The notes: a model not told the origin generated them from the letters alone. A stretch of 64,000 bases of DNA from a virus (IMGVR_UViG_3300024581_003792:63006-127005); one strand, 5' to 3'. Shown: positions 34,197-64,000, counted from the stretch's first letter. Numbers and translations: made by a program.

Positions 34197-34224
34197 ATTA
34201 TAACATAAAATTCAAAAATGTCAA
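34197..34224 (-). promoter_or_regulatory. Consensus sigma70 promoter P1 TTGACA-N16-TATAAT with TGn extension, facing the sigma-factor operon
   Basis: Minus strand reads TTGACAtttttgaattttatgtTATAAT. Confidence 0.8.
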
Positions 34225-34973
34225 GTAAAAATTTTAATAATATATCTTTTTGTATCGCCACCAACGGAAAAAAAGTTGAAAAGACAAGAGTTCTAATATC
34301 TTCTATACTAGGTATTAAAAAATATGAAAGCTTTAATATTGATATAAATATATGTGGATGCACGGATAGTTTTGTAGGTATTTCTGGGGTTAATTTGATA
34401 GATGCTTGCCAGGAAGCTAAGAGCGGGATGTTGTCAGCACTTAGGTTTATTGCGGCAGAGGATATTAATACTGATATTTTTGTGTTTGTGGATGATGACT
34501 TTGTTTTCCCGGAAGATTGGTTGCTTAATTTAATAAATTTCAGCGAAGATAATTATTGGGATGTGCTTGGTCATAAAATATTATTACCAAATGGTGACAG
34601 ATTCTGGGATAAGTCTACTTTCAGCCCTCATAGAATGATTAATTATGATGATCCTATAGGTGGAAATTTTTATCAAACAGGTGGGCTCTGGATAATTAAA
34701 TCATCTGTTTACAATCAATGTAAATGGGATGCTTCAATACCTATTAATGCTACAGACAAAGGGTTTAAATACAACGAAGATGTTGACATGAGTATTCGTA
34801 TTAGGGATAATGGTTTCATTTTTAACTTTGACAAAAACAATTTAGTATGGCACAATGATGATTCCTATCATCAAGCGGGTAGCATAGTTTTAAAAACACC
34901 AAGTCACATGAAATTAATAAAAGGAACTTTAAATACCTTTAAAAAATTAGTTGATACTAATAAAAATATTTAA
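34218..34973 (+). CDS. GT-A (GT2-like) glycosyltransferase
   Basis: ISFCIAT, FVFVDDD, NEDVDMS. Confidence 0.75.
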   Translation: MSSKNFNNISFCIATNGKKVEKTRVLISSILGIKKYESFNIDINICGCTDSFVGISGVNLIDACQEAKSGMLSALRFIAAEDINTDIFVFVDDDFVFPEDWLLNLINFSEDNYWDVLGHKILLPNGDRFWDKSTFSPHRMINYDDPIGGNFYQTGGLWIIKSSVYNQCKWDASIPINATDKGFKYNEDVDMSIRIRDNGFIFNFDKNNLVWHNDDSYHQAGSIVLKTPSHMKLIKGTLNTFKKLVDTNKNI

Positions 34974-34978
34974 TAATC

Positions 34979-35695
34979 ATGAATAGTAATAATAACGAAA
35001 CTATAGTAGTTATGGCAAACGGGCCTTCACTAAGGGATGTTGATTTTAATTCCTTTAAACATTTAGATACATTTAGCCTTAATGCGGCTTACAGGATGTA
35101 CAGTAAAATGAATTGGTGGCCAACATATCATGGCTGCTTTGATTATGTGGTTTGCGAGAATCATAGAAAACAGTACCAATCCTTAATTGACGACGCATCA
35201 AATAATATAAAAAAATTTTTTTACATTAATGATTTTAATAAATCACCAAGATTTCAAAGAATTAAATTAAGCGGAGACTTTAATCCTCATAACCCATTAT
35301 GCAGATCAATTAGTGACTTCGACTATTTTCACGATAAAGGGAATTCAGGTGCTAATGCTTGTCAAGTAGCAATCTGCCTTGGTTACAAGAAAATTATACT
35401 ACTTGGAGCAGATTGTAATTACAAAGAAATTGTTGATGGCGCGGAAATATACAAAGATAATGGAGAAAACAGATTAATTATTTCAGAAACTATAAATAAA
35501 AATCCTAACTATTGGTTTGATGACTACCAGCAACCTGGCGACAGATACAACATACCAAATGTAAATGTATTCCAAAAACCTGGCTGGGAAAGTTTGGCTT
35601 CAAAATGCAAGAATACAGATATAGATATAGTTAATTGCAGTGCAGTCAGTAAATTAGATTGTTTCAGAAAATCAACCATAGAAAAAGAAGTTTAA
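34979..35695 (+). CDS. Maf/DUF115/CstII-like putative ulosonic-acid transferase
   Basis: VMANGPSL, FSLN, NSG...Q.AI.LGYKKIILLGAD. Confidence 0.7.
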   Translation: MNSNNNETIVVMANGPSLRDVDFNSFKHLDTFSLNAAYRMYSKMNWWPTYHGCFDYVVCENHRKQYQSLIDDASNNIKKFFYINDFNKSPRFQRIKLSGDFNPHNPLCRSISDFDYFHDKGNSGANACQVAICLGYKKIILLGADCNYKEIVDGAEIYKDNGENRLIISETINKNPNYWFDDYQQPGDRYNIPNVNVFQKPGWESLASKCKNTDIDIVNCSAVSKLDCFRKSTIEKEV

Positions 35696-35696
35696 C

Positions 35697-61364: not shown

Positions 61365-62152
61365 AGCCCAAGATAATAGATGCCTTCATGTTTAATAATG
61401 AGCTTGATATACTTAATTTCAGGCTACATGAATTAAACGATCATGTAGATAAGTTTGTTATATATGAAAACTCATGGACTTTTAGCGGTAACAAGAAGCT
61501 ATTTTACTTTGAAGAAAACAAGGAAAGATTTTCTAAATTTTCTAATAAGATAGTTCACATAAAAAGTAATACTCGGGGCAAAGACAACTGGAAAAGAGAA
61601 TACGCTCAAAGGTATGAGGTCTTAACTAAAGGCGTGTCTTCTCTTAATTTAGATGATGGAGATATTGTATCGTTCTGTGATTTGGATGAAATTATAGACC
61701 CTAAATTAATCTTAAATTACAAAGAAGAGTTGCCCCAAGATACCCCACTTTTAGTTTGCCCTCATTGGTTTAATGTATCGTGGGATTGTTATCTTGGTGC
61801 ATGGGATCATTATAGTATCATATTCTCTTATTGGCGCGAGATTAAAAAAAGAATGAACCGATGGAAGGGTATGCAATGTGGCTGGCGTTGGGACCACCCT
61901 AAATTCCCTAAACCAATTAGGCGGCAAGAATTATCTGGCTGGCATGCATCTTGGTTTATGAAGCCTGAAGATTTAATCGTTAAACTACAAAGCTTTGCTC
62001 ATAACGGAGAAGAATGGGTTGACGAATTATTACAAAACATTGATATCGTCAAGGATAGGATTGAATTAGGCCTTGATATTCAAGGCAAAAAAAAATCAAA
62101 AAACTTCAATGAAGGCTATCCAGTCTACAAAGACTATATTACCTATGAATAA
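61361..62152 (+). CDS. GT17 (MGAT3-like) GlcNAc transferase
   Basis: FNNELDIL..RL.EL...VD.FVI.E...TFSG..K, DLDEI, GWH.SW, KLQSFAH. Confidence 0.88.
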   Translation: MKPKIIDAFMFNNELDILNFRLHELNDHVDKFVIYENSWTFSGNKKLFYFEENKERFSKFSNKIVHIKSNTRGKDNWKREYAQRYEVLTKGVSSLNLDDGDIVSFCDLDEIIDPKLILNYKEELPQDTPLLVCPHWFNVSWDCYLGAWDHYSIIFSYWREIKKRMNRWKGMQCGWRWDHPKFPKPIRRQELSGWHASWFMKPEDLIVKLQSFAHNGEEWVDELLQNIDIVKDRIELGLDIQGKKKSKNFNEGYPVYKDYITYE

Positions 62153-62774
62153 TTTAAAATTAATTTCTGTAATTAGTTCGGGCGACGATAAATACAAGCC
62201 TATTCATGATAATTTTTGCGCTAATATATCATCTTTTGATTCAATTATTTCTAAGGTTGAGGTCATAAATGTTGACGCAAAATCTGGCGACTGGCAAAGC
62301 CAAGGTTTCCTCGATACTGTATATAAAAAATTGGACTTTACCCATCAATTATTAAAACAAGGTTATACTGTTTTTTGCACAGATTTAGATATCTTTTACT
62401 TGAAAGATCCGATAAAGTATATGTATAAGCTACTTAATGATTTTGATATTGTCGGGCAGAATGATTTCGGTAGACTTTGTACAGGTTTTTATATGGTGAA
62501 ACCTTCTGATTTAACGATAGATCTTTTTGATACGAGCGAGAAACTCGTATTAGACGGTGAGCAAAGTGATCAAAATTACATTCACGCTAAATTACAATCA
62601 GATAAATATTCTGATTTAAAAGTTCATAAGCTTGATCGAGATAATTTTCCTAATGGCTATCGCTGGTATAAATGGCATAAAAGATTAAATCCATCTATCG
62701 TTCACTATAATAGTATAGACTCTATACAAGGAAAGATAGATAAAATGAAACAATTTAATCATTGGTTAGTATGA
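62145..62774 (+). CDS. Nucleotide-diphospho-sugar transferase (GT77-like)
   Basis: TDLDIFYLKDP, CTGF, DQ, FPNG, VHYN....K. Confidence 0.8.
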   Translation: MNNLKLISVISSGDDKYKPIHDNFCANISSFDSIISKVEVINVDAKSGDWQSQGFLDTVYKKLDFTHQLLKQGYTVFCTDLDIFYLKDPIKYMYKLLNDFDIVGQNDFGRLCTGFYMVKPSDLTIDLFDTSEKLVLDGEQSDQNYIHAKLQSDKYSDLKVHKLDRDNFPNGYRWYKWHKRLNPSIVHYNSIDSIQGKIDKMKQFNHWLV

Positions 62775-63364
62775 TATCTTTTGACAGAAATATAATCTTT
62801 ATCCATAACCAAAAATGCGGAGGAACTTCTATTGAAAAAAGTTTTTTTACGAGAGAAGAATATGAGTTTCATTACAAAAATGATAAAATCTTTGGTAAAC
62901 TATACCACTCAGGTATATCAAGCTATATAGAAGAATATAGCTTTGACCTTGTAAAAAAATGCACAATATTTTCATCTACCAGAAACCCGTGGTCTCGAAT
63001 TATTTCTTTTATTTTTTGGAGGGCCAAATTCAAGGGGATTGAAATAAACAATTTTACAAAAGATTTTTTCCTATCAGAACTTTACGACCCAGAGCAAGGC
63101 ATGCCTCTCGCTACTTTAAAATCTTGCATTGGCAATAATATTAGCCCAGAACTCAACACGCCCAAATCGAATATCTTAAAAATTGAAAATATAACAAATG
63201 AGCTAAGTGAGTTTTGCGAGCGAAACAATTTTAGTTATCAACCTGTTAGCACTTTAAATACTTCGAATCATCTCGATTACCGGCATTACTACGACAAAGA
63301 AACCAGGGATATTATTGGCGATTTATTTTCAGATGATATTGATTTTTTTAACTATGATTTTTGA
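62771..63364 (+). CDS. Sulfotransferase family 2
   Basis: FIHNQKCGGTS, RNPWSRIIS. Confidence 0.85.
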   Translation: MISFDRNIIFIHNQKCGGTSIEKSFFTREEYEFHYKNDKIFGKLYHSGISSYIEEYSFDLVKKCTIFSSTRNPWSRIISFIFWRAKFKGIEINNFTKDFFLSELYDPEQGMPLATLKSCIGNNISPELNTPKSNILKIENITNELSEFCERNNFSYQPVSTLNTSNHLDYRHYYDKETRDIIGDLFSDDIDFFNYDF

Positions 63365-64000
63365 TGATGAAAATATTTAAAGTTTTTGTATGCTGCCATA
63401 AATATATCCACAGGATTGAAGATATAAAAGCTCGCGTTGATAAATGGAATCTTGGTGATTATTTAATTTTTGTCGGTGGCGAAGAAGAAAAACAACTAGA
63501 AGAAAATGTAATTCAATTAAAGTGCCGCGACTTATACGAAGATCTGCCAGAAAAAATGTTTGCTATATATAAATATTTGGCCGCCAACAATTACGCAGAT
63601 CAATACGATTATTTTTGGAAGATAGATGATGATGTTGATTTTATGCGCTGGAATCAAGCTCGAGAAAAAGCTCTTATTGAATCCTTAACTGGCTTTGATT
63701 ACTGTGGCTTGAAAGTTTTTAAAAAAAGAGGCAACCCAAATTGGCACATAGGAAGAGTAGCAAAAAACTCGCCTTGGTACGAAAAGCCTTATGACGGCGC
63801 TTTTACACCTTATGCAGATGGTGGTTCGACTTATTTTCTTAGCTCTAAATCAATTAATTTTTTCGCAAATATTTACGATGCTTCTCAAATCAGAGAGCAG
63901 GATATTTTTGAAGACTTAGCTATTGGTAAATATTTAGAAAGATGTGGCATTCTACCAGTGCAAATAAATCCATGGGAAGATAAACCTGTACTGAAGTTTA
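63364..64000 (+). CDS. GT31-like (beta-1,3-galactosyltransferase/Fringe) glycosyltransferase, 3'-truncated; not in the ORF track
   Basis: Translated by hand from ATG 63364: DLYEDLPEK, WKIDDD, YADGG.TYFLS, EDLAIG; open to the window end. Confidence 0.85.
   Translation, partial: MMKIFKVFVCCHKYIHRIEDIKARVDKWNLGDYLIFVGGEEEKQLEENVIQLKCRDLYEDLPEKMFAIYKYLAANNYADQYDYFWKIDDDVDFMRWNQAREKALIESLTGFDYCGLKVFKKRGNPNWHIGRVAKNSPWYEKPYDGAFTPYADGGSTYFLSSKSINFFANIYDASQIREQDIFEDLAIGKYLERCGILPVQINPWEDKPVLKF

What the first reader, a model, noticed from the sequence alone, without database searches (positions are those of the whole stretch)
34218..64000. Phage-encoded complex glycan factory with eukaryote-associated GT families, fucosylation, sulfation and pyruvylation
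Seen: GDP-fucose synthesis (gmd, fcl), an epimerase, a UDP-sugar dehydrogenase and about 15 GTs including GT17-, GT23-, GT31-, GT77 (x2)-, GT90- and GT92-like. Also four sulfotransferases, a pyruvyltransferase and methyltransferase-like genes; the cluster runs off the window. The enzymes look soluble, and no flippase, polymerase or undecaprenyl priming transferase is visible. Inference: cytoplasmic assembly of a sulfated, fucosylated glycan on virion proteins (a glycan coat as in giant viruses), or remodelling of the host surface. This scale is unusual for a phage with a lambda-type tail.
Basis: partly seen in the sequence, partly recalled or inferred. Interest (0 to 1): 0.82.

Follow-up and report, generated by a model that had tools for sequence, protein, structure and literature searches.

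The report
Phage sulfated-glycan gene islands
An uncultured 214-kb marine tailed phage devotes about a fifth of its genome to soluble enzymes that should make activated sugars and the sulfate donor and assemble a fucosylated, sulfated, pyruvylated sugar chain; the genes sit in swappable islands beside two sugar transferases kept by the whole phage family, but what the chain is attached to is still unknown.

Summary
Pfam and PDB searches confirm gmd, fcl, an SDR epimerase, a truncated UDP-sugar dehydrogenase and a CMP-sugar synthetase. They also confirm ten glycosyltransferases (GT2, GT42, GT23, GT77 x2, GT2_4, GT90, GT2+GT7C, GT17, GT31), three sulfotransferases and a pyruvyltransferase at 34218-64000. 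GT92 is below threshold. The methyltransferases and the fourth sulfotransferase lie just beyond the window.

The locus is not a chimera. Both flanks are phage backbone, codon usage matches, and island B recurs in at least 15 independent viral contigs. The system is larger than reported:
- Two family-wide backbone transferases lie upstream (GT4-like, GT9-like; 27062-30559, minus strand).
- Island A and island B flank the ribonucleotide reductase genes.
- A third island and an APS-kinase fusion lie elsewhere in the genome.

Island content is serotype-like. One relative has GT11/GT6/GT31 at the same site, and another has island A at 94-96% identity beside 68-79% flanks.

No enzyme has a membrane segment. 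No priming transferase, flippase or DNA-hydroxymethylase gene was found. I favour cytoplasmic glycosylation of a virion protein (about 0.45). Host lipooligosaccharide remodelling is the main rival (about 0.3).

This scan had already reported the same system from another window of this genome, and similar ones in other jumbo phages.

The parts
27062..28255 (-). Backbone 397-aa protein. Its N-terminal half is the donor-binding lobe of a GT9 (heptosyltransferase-type) glycosyltransferase. Its C-terminal half has no match.
   Evidence: AF2 model pLDDT 90.8. VIA-align Z 14.4-16.0 to the Veillonella GT9, WaaF, WaaC and TibC over residues 2-187. PF01075 is above cut-off in the homologs of G001, G002, G006, G008 and G010. 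Conserved in all relatives (31-61% identity).
28643..30559 (-). Backbone 638-aa GT4-type GT-B glycosyltransferase with a four-Cys insert and a C-terminal DUF4214 plus an alpha/beta domain. Candidate conserved initiating or anchoring transferase.
   Evidence: Weak PF00534 and PF13946 hits. More than 3,600 homolog clusters, all about 635-645 aa. AF2 pLDDT 86.4. Foldseek top hit is the chlorovirus NY-2A glycosyltransferase 3oy2 (E 4.5e-18, TMt 0.76), followed by MshA, PimB' and BshA. C270, C273, C288 and C291 are invariant. 50% identity even in the distant relative G010.
32000..33085 (-). Backbone 361-aa protein, conserved family-wide. A possible third GT-B-like protein; unverified.
   Evidence: PDB phmmer gives only E 0.01 to a GT group-1 protein. 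53-67% identity in relatives.
34197..34224 (-). Perfect sigma-70 promoter (TTGACA-16-TATAAT, with TG) driving the minus-strand operon: 202-aa gene, SSB, 361-aa gene, and on to the GT4-like and GT9-like genes.
   Evidence: 12 of 12 match. It lies in the 142-bp divergent intergenic region.
34218..35695 (+). Island A: GT2 (34218-34973) and a GT42/Maf-like CMP-sugar-dependent transferase (34979-35695).
   Evidence: Pfam PF00535; PF01973/PF06002. PDB Cst-II sialyltransferases, E 2.7e-5.
35697..37375 (+). Island A: two unannotated ORFs (351 aa and 208 aa). The first may be a GT-B glycosyltransferase.
   Evidence: No Pfam, PHROG or PDB match. ESM Atlas nearest clusters are viral Glyco_trans_1_2, score 0.97; this is a lead only. 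Both ORFs are absent from the otherwise 94-96% identical island of L278.
37372..38786 (+). Island A: CMP-sugar synthetase (NeuA-like, 37372-38037) and an HpcH/HpaI class II pyruvate aldolase (38013-38786). Together a candidate non-canonical ulosonic-acid supply.
   Evidence: PF02348 66 bits; PF03328 50 bits. PDB CMP-NeuAc synthetases, E 1e-13. PDB HpcH/YfaU aldolases. No NeuB or KdsA family gene in the genome.
38783..40755 (+). Island A: GDP-mannose 4,6-dehydratase (gmd) and GDP-L-fucose synthase (fcl).
   Evidence: PF16363 351 bits. PDB GDP-fucose synthetase, E 1.6e-100. gmd is the one island gene shared by all relatives (71-96%).
40990..42728 (+). Island A: an SDR (UDP-hexose 4-epimerase or UDP-GlcA decarboxylase type) and a short UDP-Glc/GDP-Man dehydrogenase (284 aa, no C-terminal domain).
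   Evidence: Pfam. PDB. The short form is 87% conserved in G006 and L278.
42849..47957 (+). Conserved backbone block that separates the islands: nrdA, NUDIX hydrolase, two small ORFs, nrdB and a DnaJ-like gene. Not part of the glycan pathway as far as shown.
   Evidence: Pfam. 80-90% conserved in G001, G002 and G006.
48183..52070 (+). Island B, first part: four unannotated ORFs (48183, 48824, 49750, 51270) and one sulfotransferase (50594-51280).
   Evidence: PF03567 63 bits. ESM lead of viral GT2 for 48824, score 0.98. 70-95% conserved in G006. No TM segments.
52067..55165 (+). Island B: NodZ/GT23-like fucosyltransferase (52067), sulfotransferase (52955), polysaccharide pyruvyltransferase (53590) and GT77 (54419).
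   Evidence: PF05830 59 bits, PF03567 66 bits, PF04230 42 bits, PF03407 56 bits. The pyruvyltransferase is absent from all relatives examined.
55153..58243 (+). Island B: conserved 156-aa ORF, a GT-A transferase (GT2_4; GT92 only sub-threshold) and a 573-aa GHKL-type ATPase of unknown role.
   Evidence: Pfam. The 156-aa ORF and the GHKL gene are the best conserved island genes (81-91%). No PDB sequence match for the GHKL protein.
58261..61364 (+). Island B: unknown ORF (paralog of 49750), GT90 (POGLUT-like), another unknown ORF, and a GT2+GT7C transferase resembling the chondroitin synthase A1 domain.
   Evidence: PF05686 87 bits. PDB POGLUT2/POGLUT1/Rumi, E 1.6e-14. PF00535 plus PF02709. PDB K4CP, E 1.7e-16.
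61355..64000 (+). Island B: GT17, GT77, sulfotransferase and GT31 (the last runs 14 bases past the window). The island continues about 4.2 kb beyond the window: 2 ORFs, 2 methyltransferases, a sulfotransferase and an SDR.
   Evidence: PF04724 96 bits, PF03407 75 bits, PF03567 21.6 bits, PF01762 39 bits. Continuation in L007:366-5189. Sulfotransferase motifs K15 and R59-N-P..S67 are invariant in 9 paralogs.

Best explanation
The stretch is the larger half of a phage-encoded, export-less glycan assembly system.

Shown:
- The phage is a complete 214-kb siphovirus-like genome. It carries its own enzymes for GDP-L-fucose, a CMP-activated ulosonic/sialic-type acid, and UDP-uronic acid or its derivatives.
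- It also carries about 13 glycosyltransferases here (16-19 genome-wide), sulfotransferases with intact PAPS-binding residues (3 here, about 10 genome-wide), a pyruvyltransferase and methyltransferases.
- An APS-kinase/nucleotidyltransferase fusion lies elsewhere in the genome.
- All of these enzymes lack membrane segments.
- The genes form cassette islands at fixed backbone sites on either side of the ribonucleotide reductase genes.
- Next to the islands lies a GT4-like and GT9-like pair that the whole phage family conserves.
- Island content differs between close relatives, and islands are exchanged laterally.

Inferred: the conserved pair puts the first sugars on a conserved acceptor in the infected cell's cytoplasm. 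The variable island enzymes then extend and decorate the chain with fucose, acidic sugars, sulfate, pyruvate and methyl groups. The acceptor is most likely a virion protein (fibre, tail or capsid), so the product leaves the cell on the particle at lysis and no exporter is needed. The serotype-like turnover would then reflect selection on an exposed virion glycan.
For: - Enzyme identities.
- Soluble, no export genes: no TM segments in cluster enzymes. No PGT, WecA-type or Wzx families in the genome.
- Phage context: TerL, tail proteins, CheckV 100%.
- Not a chimera: both flanks are syntenic in G001, G002, G006 and G010. Codon-usage correlation with the backbone is r 0.92-0.97. Island B is present at 60-96% identity in 7 contigs, and island-B-type genes in 15 of 59 relatives with enough flank.
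- Conserved core: the GT4-like fold has more than 3,600 homolog clusters. GT9-like lobe.
- Variable islands: G002 carries GT11, GT6, GT25, GT31 and methyltransferases at the same site. Island A is 94-96% identical in L278 beside 68-79% flanks.
- Sulfation is internally coherent. Invariant K15/R59/S67 in 9 paralogs. APS_kinase plus CTP_transf_like fusion. The fusion and a DUF1501 gene are present in G000 and G006, which have sulfotransferases, and absent in G002, which has none.
- Precedents: virus-encoded, clade-specific virion glycan clusters with pyruvyl- and methyltransferases and sulfate-metabolism genes in Megavirinae (PMC9614988, PMC10117803). Glycans on mycobacteriophage capsid and tail-tube subunits (as cited in PMC12619734).
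Against: - No acceptor was identified. No structural protein has a Ser/Thr-rich tract.
- The islands and the conserved pair lie in the nucleotide-metabolism and replication part of the genome. The conserved pair is co-transcribed with SSB from a consensus sigma-70 promoter. That suggests early or middle expression rather than late.
- GT9, GT4, GT25 and GT42 are classic lipooligosaccharide families, so the host's lipid A-core is an equally export-free acceptor.
- Island B is confined to a subclade (15 of 59).
- No activity, product or expression data exist.
- Seven to nine island ORFs remain unannotated.
Confidence: 0.45

Rival explanations
1. Host envelope remodelling. The soluble phage transferases work at the cytoplasmic face of the inner membrane. 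Their acceptor would be the host's lipid A-core (LOS-type assembly), or a host Und-PP-linked intermediate. The host's own MsbA/Lpt or Wzx/ligase then carries the altered, sulfated glycan to the cell surface. That would block superinfection, or stop progeny from sticking to infected cells and debris.
For: - The family-conserved pair is GT4-like and GT9-like. The islands hold GT42 Cst-II-like and CMP-sugar synthetase genes and GT25 genes. All are families typical of LPS-core/LOS synthesis, where enzymes are soluble or peripheral and need no dedicated flippase.
- The operon is driven by a consensus sigma-70 promoter together with SSB, which fits early action.
- The same idea was proposed for the 24 'LPS genes' of the lytic cyanophage P-SSM2 (PMC1079782).
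- The MAG that co-bins a relative phage has two canonical GT9 heptosyltransferases.
Against: - The GT9 similarity covers only the donor-binding lobe and cannot separate LPS-type from protein-type (TibC) enzymes.
- GT17, GT23, GT31, GT77 and GT90 have no known LOS role. The GT90-like enzyme's solved relatives are protein O-glucosyltransferases.
- About 45 kb of genes is a large investment for a lytic phage to alter a cell it will destroy.
- Sulfated LOS is rare.
- No lysogeny genes were noted.
Confidence: 0.3
2. DNA hypermodification. The GT-B enzymes in the SSB operon, and perhaps the island enzymes too, glycosylate phage DNA, as T-even phages do on hydroxymethylcytosine, to evade restriction.
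For: - The two conserved GT-B-type genes sit in an operon with SSB, beside RNR and replication genes.
- T4 alpha- and beta-glucosyltransferases are GT-B enzymes.
- One ESM Atlas neighbour cluster of ORF 35697 carries PF09198, T4-Gluco-transf (rank 10).
- Diverse DNA glycans made by viral GTs are reported (Pyle et al. 2024, cited in PMC12619734).
Against: - No thymidylate-synthase-family hydroxymethylase was found.
- No C5 DNA methyltransferase was found.
- No TET/JBP hit was found, but that search's control rang nowhere, so it is weak evidence.
- Sulfation, pyruvylation, fucosylation and about 20 transferases far exceed any known DNA glycan.
Confidence: 0.05
3. Another cytoplasmic product. The enzymes make a free sulfated oligosaccharide or glycolipid, or glycosylate host cytoplasmic proteins as part of takeover. 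In that case there is no surface display.
For: All enzymes are soluble and no acceptor is known. NodZ-type fucosyltransferase, sulfotransferase and methyltransferase recall decoration of small lipo-oligosaccharides.
Against: No chitin-oligomer synthase or acyltransferase was detected. Serotype-like turnover of islands is more typical of exposed, recognised structures.
Confidence: 0.12
4. Assembly chimera. A host polysaccharide locus has been joined to a phage contig.
For: Large sugar clusters are typical of bacterial chromosomes. The record is a metagenome assembly with no terminal repeats.
Against: - Phage backbone genes flank each island on both sides, in the same order as in four other long genomes.
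- Codon usage and GC3 are indistinguishable from the backbone.
- The same islands recur in independent assemblies from many samples.
Confidence: 0.01

Closest known systems
Giant-virus autonomous glycosylation clusters (chlorovirus PBCV-1 capsid glycans; Megavirinae fibril glycogene clusters; PMC9614988, PMC10117803)
   Same: - Virus-encoded sugar-nucleotide pathways plus soluble GTs.
- Pyruvyl- and methyltransferases, and in some clades sulfate-metabolism genes.
- Cluster content is clade-specific.
- No use of a cellular export pathway.
- The best solved structural match of the conserved GT4-like protein is a chlorovirus glycosyltransferase.
   Different: - Here the virus is a tailed bacteriophage.
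- About ten dedicated carbohydrate sulfotransferases are present. The giant-virus clusters are reported with sulfate-activation genes only.
- The genes are split into cassette islands at fixed sites beside a conserved GT pair.
- The glycan and its acceptor are undetermined here.
Mycobacteriophage virion glycosylation (Freeman et al. 2023, as cited in PMC12619734)
   Same: Phage-encoded cytoplasmic GTs (with methyltransferases in some phages) modify the virion's own capsid and tail-tube subunits. No exporter is involved.
   Different: - Those systems have 2-6 genes. This one has roughly 60 genes in about 45-49 kb.
- This one adds donor synthesis, sulfation and pyruvylation.
- No C-terminal Ser/Thr-rich acceptor tail was found here.
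- There is no experimental evidence here.
'LPS gene' clusters of the lytic cyanomyovirus P-SSM2 (Sullivan et al. 2005, PMC1079782) and the single sulfotransferase-plus-GT25 pairs of Synechococcus phages ACG-2014f, Ralstonia phiRSL1 and Stenotrophomonas DLP_6
   Same: Large sugar epimerase, transferase and synthase clusters in lytic marine phages, present in one phage and absent in a close relative. Their function is untested. Isolated homologous sulfotransferases (24-29% identity) are annotated in cultured jumbo phages.
   Different: The lineage is a different, uncultured siphovirus-like one (best TerL identity to any GenBank phage is 24-28%). There are many sulfotransferases with a PAPS-synthase candidate, GT17/23/31/77/90 families, an ulosonic-acid module, and a family-wide conserved GT4/GT9-like core.
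Bacterial lipooligosaccharide outer-core assembly (Campylobacter Cst-II/NeuA; Neisseria/Haemophilus Lgt GT25; WaaC/WaaF GT9; WaaG GT4)
   Same: The same enzyme families, all soluble or peripheral, with stepwise cytoplasmic assembly and no dedicated flippase. The loci show phase- or serotype-like variability.
   Different: - No lipid A or Kdo genes are present.
- The GT9 similarity covers the donor lobe only.
- Sulfo- and pyruvyltransferases and GT17/23/77/90 enzymes are foreign to known LOS loci.
- The system is encoded by a virus.

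Membership tests
Virus-encoded autonomous (export-independent) virion glycosylation system | The virus encodes its own glycosyltransferases and nucleotide-sugar enzymes | tested here: met
   Pfam and PDB matches. The genes lie inside a complete phage genome.
Virus-encoded autonomous (export-independent) virion glycosylation system | Enzymes are soluble and no membrane export or priming machinery is encoded | tested here: met
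   Hydropathy scan. PF02397, PF00953 and PF01943 are absent, with positive controls.
Virus-encoded autonomous (export-independent) virion glycosylation system | The glycan is covalently attached to a virion protein | not testable with these tools
   Needs virion glycoproteomics. In silico, no Ser/Thr-rich acceptor tract was found.
Virus-encoded autonomous (export-independent) virion glycosylation system | Cluster content is clade- or strain-specific | tested here: met
   A different GT set in G002 at the same site. Cassette turnover among L109-L115 and G006. Lateral exchange.
Wzx/Wzy- or ABC-dependent O-antigen/capsule locus | Und-P priming phosphoglycosyltransferase (Bac_transf or WecA/MraY type) | tested here: not met
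   No match in six frames of the whole genome. Controls rang in 10 and 12 of 14 genomes.
Wzx/Wzy- or ABC-dependent O-antigen/capsule locus | Multi-pass flippase or polymerase | tested here: not met
   PF01943 is absent. The only multi-TM protein of the genome is a 401-aa backbone gene in the replication module, with about 6 segments.
LOS/LPS-core type assembly on lipid A-core | GT9 heptosyltransferase and GT4/GT25/GT42 outer-core transferases | tested here: inconclusive
   GT9 donor lobe only (Z 14-16; PF01075). GT4-like fold. GT42-like. GT25. Acceptor specificity cannot be read from sequence.
T-even-type DNA glucosylation | A route to hydroxymethylated pyrimidines in DNA (TS-family hydroxymethylase, or C5-methyltransferase plus TET) | tested here: not met
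   PF00303 and PF00145 are absent, with positive controls. PF12851 is absent, but its control did not ring.
PAPS-dependent carbohydrate sulfotransferases (Pfam Sulfotransfer_2) | Profile match above the curated cut-off | tested here: met
   63.4 and 65.9 bits for 50594 and 52955, and 56 bits for L007:3029. 62762 scores 21.6 against a cut-off of 22, but is a clear paralog (E 1e-20).
PAPS-dependent carbohydrate sulfotransferases (Pfam Sulfotransfer_2) | 5'-phosphosulfate-binding loop Lys and 3'-phosphate-binding Arg/Ser | tested here: met
   K15 in the PKxGGTS loop, and R59-N60-P61...S67, are invariant in all 9 paralogs. Assigning these residues to PAPS binding rests on established sulfotransferase structures (own knowledge).
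GDP-L-fucose de novo pathway (Gmd + Fcl/WcaG) | Both enzymes present and full length | tested here: met
   PF16363 over 1-332 of 332 positions. Fcl aligns over 2-313 with E. coli GDP-fucose synthetase, E 1.6e-100.
Canonical sialic/ulosonic acid pathway (NeuB or KdsA, NeuA/KdsB, sialyltransferase) | PEP-dependent NeuB/KdsA-type synthase | tested here: not met
   PF03102 and PF00793 are absent from the genome. An HpcH-type pyruvate aldolase sits next to the NeuA-like gene instead.

The most novel reading that the evidence does not exclude
Virions of this abundant marine phage family wear a strain-variable, polyanionic coat. The coat would be sulfated, fucosylated, pyruvylated and ulosonic-acid-bearing, resembling algal or marine exopolysaccharides. 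It would start from a conserved GT4/GT9-like pair and be diversified by laterally exchanged gene islands, giving phage 'serotypes'. The coat would act either as bait for host glycan-binding and uptake proteins or as a shield against decay and non-productive adsorption. This would be the first sulfated glycan made by a bacteriophage.
Probability: 0.17. Interest if true: 0.9.

Novelty: new variant of a known kind. Interest (0 to 1): 0.7.

Why it matters
Virus-made glycans are known from giant viruses of eukaryotes and, in small form, from mycobacteriophages. Large sugar clusters in marine phages have stood unexplained since 2005. This lineage is abundant: there are more than 3,600 homolog clusters of its core transferase in public metagenomes.

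It offers a well-defined case with three parts:
- a conserved transferase pair;
- swappable islands;
- its own supply of fucose, an acidic sugar and probably PAPS.

If the product sits on the virion, phages would have glycan serotypes. That would bear on adsorption, particle stability, the sinking and stickiness of viral particles, and marine sulfur and carbon budgets. If it sits on the host, it would be a large-scale surface conversion by a lytic phage.

The enzymes are small and soluble. They include bacterial-type GT17, GT23, GT31, GT77 and GT90 transferases and about ten carbohydrate sulfotransferases, which could also be useful tools for glycan synthesis.

Tried and rejected
- PHROGs on ten unannotated island ORFs gave one weak 'glycosyltransferase' hit only.
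- Profile-profile comparison (hhalign) of 12 unannotated ORFs against 23 annotated island families, using alignments built from relatives, gave no probability above 11%. An earlier, larger run timed out.
- PDB sequence searches found nothing for ORF 35697 or for the GHKL ATPase.
- A scan for Ser/Thr-rich acceptor tracts in all 260 proteins found none.
- The GTGTA start-proximal motif precedes both structural genes and some island or RNR genes, so it does not time the islands.
- Host inference is unresolved, and I make no host call:
  - There are no tRNA genes in the rest of the genome.
  - The closest gmd homologs lie on contigs binned as Flavobacteriaceae (2), Cellvibrionales (1) and Proteobacteria (1). 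The Cellvibrionales one is itself a whole relative phage.
  - Canonical sigma-70 promoters, and the 36-38% GC of the Cellvibrionales MAG, lean towards a low-GC gammaproteobacterium.
  - A DUF5123 domain in a fibre protein and the Flavobacterium-like GT17 relatives lean the other way.
- The TET/JBP search had no positive control.
- Literature searches for phage sulfotransferase or sulfated-glycan systems returned nothing relevant.

Full report
**What is there.**
The window is bases 63006-127005 of a 213,830-bp IMG/VR virus record that CheckV rates complete. I found no exact terminal repeat. I called 260 ORFs genome-wide and 36 plus-strand ORFs in 34218-64000. I group the genes as island A, a backbone block, and island B.

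- Island A (34218-42728):
  - GT2.
  - A GT42/Maf-like transferase (PDB: Cst-II sialyltransferases).
  - Two unannotated ORFs.
  - A NeuA-like CMP-sugar synthetase.
  - An HpcH-type class II pyruvate aldolase.
  - gmd.
  - fcl (E 1.6e-100 to E. coli GDP-fucose synthetase).
  - An SDR of the UDP-hexose epimerase or UDP-GlcA decarboxylase type.
  - A 284-aa UDP-sugar dehydrogenase lacking the C-terminal domain.
- Backbone block (42849-47957): nrdA, a NUDIX gene, two small ORFs, nrdB and a DnaJ-like gene.
- Island B (from 48183):
  - Three Sulfotransfer_2 genes.
  - NodZ/GT23.
  - A pyruvyltransferase.
  - Two GT77 genes.
  - A GT2_4 enzyme (the GT92 hit is below cut-off).
  - GT90 (PDB: protein O-glucosyltransferases POGLUT1/2).
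  - A GT2+GT7C enzyme like the first domain of chondroitin synthase K4CP.
  - GT17.
  - GT31.
  - A GHKL ATPase.
  - Seven unannotated ORFs.

The island runs 4.2 kb past the window. That extension holds a PHROG 'glycosyltransferase', one unknown ORF, two Methyltransf_24 genes, a fourth sulfotransferase and another SDR. RecA-like, DnaB, primase, nuclease, Pol III alpha and ClpB genes follow. There are 10 firm GTs in the window, not about 15, and three sulfotransferases, not four. No methyltransferase lies inside the window.

**It is phage DNA, not a chimera.**
- The large terminase, a 4,460-aa tape measure protein, Phage_min_tail and a gpJ-like Phage-tail_3 protein lie upstream.
- In four other long genomes of the same family, the genes on both sides of each island are present in the same order. 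These are:
  - G001, 138 kb.
  - G002, 200 kb.
  - A 211-kb contig mis-binned in a 'Cellvibrionales' MAG.
  - G010, 205 kb with terminal repeats.
- Codon usage of the islands correlates with the backbone at r 0.92-0.97, with the same GC3.
- Island B recurs at 60-96% protein identity in seven IMG/VR contigs from different samples and in the 211-kb contig.
- Of 59 relatives with at least 8 kb held upstream of the conserved gene that follows island B, 15 carry island-B-type genes including sulfotransferases. In 4 the DnaJ-like gene directly abuts that conserved gene, so there is no island.

**The system is larger and has a conserved core.**
Immediately upstream, on the minus strand, a perfect sigma-70 promoter (34224-34197, 12 of 12 with TG) heads an operon. 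It contains a 202-aa gene, SSB, a 361-aa gene, small ORFs, a 638-aa protein, a DUF6165 gene, a 397-aa protein and a 259-aa gene.

The 638-aa protein models confidently (pLDDT 86) as a GT4-type GT-B enzyme. It has a four-cysteine insert and extra C-terminal domains. Its best solved match is a chlorovirus glycosyltransferase. It has more than 3,600 homolog clusters of the same length in metagenomes.

The N-terminal half of the 397-aa protein (pLDDT 91) is the donor-binding lobe of GT9 heptosyltransferases (Z 14-16). Its relatives pass Pfam's GT9 cut-off. Both proteins are conserved in every relative, including the distant G010.

Elsewhere the genome has a third island (177-189 kb). It holds six sulfotransferase genes (five found by paralogy, a sixth by Pfam only), GT25 x2, GT2 and RmlD. 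At 168-170 kb there is an APS_kinase plus HxGH-nucleotidyltransferase fusion next to a DUF1501 gene. Together this is about 49 kb, or 23% of the genome.

**Islands behave like serotype loci.**
- G002 lacks islands B and C and all sulfotransferases. It also lacks the APS-kinase fusion and DUF1501.
- At the island A site, G002 carries GT11, GT6 (141 bits), GT25, GT31, two GT2 genes and two methyltransferases. It shares only gmd with G000.
- Among island-B carriers, single genes come and go. The pyruvyltransferase is unique to G000, and GT90 is seen only in L114 and G006.
- In one relative, island A through nrdA is 94-96% identical to G000 while the adjacent backbone genes are 68-79% identical. 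This indicates recent lateral exchange with a breakpoint in the divergent promoter region.
- In more distant relatives the RNR genes abut the conserved operon and sugar genes follow them.

**Mechanism.**
Shown by sequence:
- Donor supply for GDP-fucose.
- A NeuA-like activating enzyme and a GT42-like transferase, but no NeuB or KdsA. The adjacent pyruvate aldolase is therefore the candidate synthase of a 3-deoxy-2-ulosonic acid. This step is an inference.
- Nine sulfotransferase paralogs with invariant 5'-PSB lysine and 3'-PB arginine and serine.
- A candidate PAPS source that co-occurs with the sulfotransferases in the three comparable genomes. There is no canonical ATP sulfurylase.

No cluster enzyme has a membrane segment. 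The genome has no Bac_transf, WecA/MraY or Wzx family member. Assembly must therefore be cytoplasmic, and the phage supplies no export route.

- **Virion protein (about 0.45).** I think a virion protein is the most likely acceptor, by analogy with giant viruses and mycobacteriophages (PMC9614988, PMC10117803, PMC12619734). A family-wide conserved transferase pair fits a conserved phage acceptor. Strain-variable decoration fits an exposed structure.
- **Host lipid A-core (about 0.3).** This is the main rival. GT9, GT4, GT25 and GT42 are LOS families, LOS assembly also needs no dedicated flippase, and the conserved pair is transcribed with SSB from a host-type promoter. This is the reading once offered for P-SSM2's 'LPS genes' (PMC1079782).
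- **DNA glycosylation (about 0.05).** This is unlikely. No TS-family hydroxymethylase or C5 methyltransferase was found. The TET search had no working control.

**Relation to what is known.**
- No GenBank phage is close: the best TerL identity is 24-28%.
- Single sulfotransferase homologs (24-29%) are annotated in phiRSL1, DLP_6 and Synechococcus ACG-2014f phages, often beside a GT25.
- The nearest non-phage relatives of the GT17-like enzyme are bacterial, not eukaryotic. 'Eukaryote-associated' therefore describes the CAZy family, not the origin of the gene.
- Full-text searches found no description of a phage system for a sulfated glycan.
- The scan itself had already reported the other half of this system from another window of the same genome, and similar factories in several other jumbo phages.

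I rate it a new variant of a known kind, virus-encoded autonomous glycosylation. It is of high but untested interest.

Noticed in passing
window 34076-42848, compared with L278:1-10750: Island A through nrdA is 94-96% identical at the protein level in IMGVR_UViG_3300048065_001187, while the adjacent backbone genes (361-aa gene, SSB, 202-aa gene) are only 68-79% identical. That indicates recent lateral exchange, with a breakpoint in the divergent promoter region. The two unknown ORFs at 35697-37375 are missing there.
   Followed up: partly
L096:9215-15305 (G002, minus strand): A 200-kb relative carries GT11 (alpha-1,2-fucosyltransferase family), GT6 (141 bits), GT31, GT25, two GT2 genes and two methyltransferases at the island A site. 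The enzyme set recalls histo-blood-group antigen synthesis.
   Followed up: partly
window 41874-42728: The UDP-glucose/GDP-mannose dehydrogenase homolog is only 284 aa and lacks the C-terminal nucleotide-sugar-binding domain. Even so, this short form is 87% conserved in two relatives.
   Followed up: partly
window 55153-55623 and 56522-58243: A 156-aa ORF and a 573-aa GHKL-type ATPase (HATPase_c_3) are the most conserved genes of island B (81-91% in seven relatives), but have no obvious role in glycan synthesis. The ATPase has no PDB sequence match.
   Followed up: partly
L137-L147 (G006:C4, GenBank contig JAYQMT010000004.1): A 210,818-bp contig binned in a 1.7-Mb 'Cellvibrionales' MAG is a whole phage of this family (TerL 87%, 195 of 260 proteins shared). 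The MAG chromosome has 36-38% GC, close to the phage's 35%. This is either a weak host hint or a binning artefact.
   Followed up: partly
whole genome (G000); window 34197-34224: Thirty-two matches of at least 11 of 12 to the canonical sigma-70 promoter, mostly intergenic and just upstream of genes in the early regions (0.6-15 kb and 189-205 kb). They suggest a host with canonical sigma-70 recognition rather than Bacteroidota-type promoters.
   Followed up: partly
L009:6109-8283 (genome 168109-170283): A DUF1501 (sulfatase/phosphatase-superfamily) gene (374 bits) lies beside the APS-kinase/HxGH fusion. It is 94% conserved in G006 and absent in G002, which has no sulfotransferases.
   Followed up: partly
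L007:11912-13117 (genome 137912-139117): The only multi-pass membrane protein of the genome (401 aa, about 6 hydrophobic segments) sits in the replication module. It is conserved in G002 and G006. Function unknown.
   Followed up: no
window 45295-45726: A NUDIX hydrolase lies between nrdA and nrdB and is conserved in relatives. It could be a nucleotide-pool enzyme or a GDP-mannose mannosyl hydrolase-like partner of gmd/fcl.
   Followed up: no
L277 (Synechococcus phage S-CBS4, HQ698895.1: 9916-12282): A cultured cyanosiphovirus has a GT group-1 gene (faintly similar to the conserved GT4-like protein, 22% identity) and a methyltransferase between its portal and head genes. That position would suit virion glycosylation.
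   Followed up: no
L008:14316-17189 (genome 159316-162189): One of six large Ser/Thr-rich (18-23%) fibre-like proteins downstream of ClpB carries a DUF5123 domain. Another (genome 145818-150167) has phage tail repeat (PTR) units. These are candidate receptor-binding proteins and candidate glycan acceptors.
   Followed up: no
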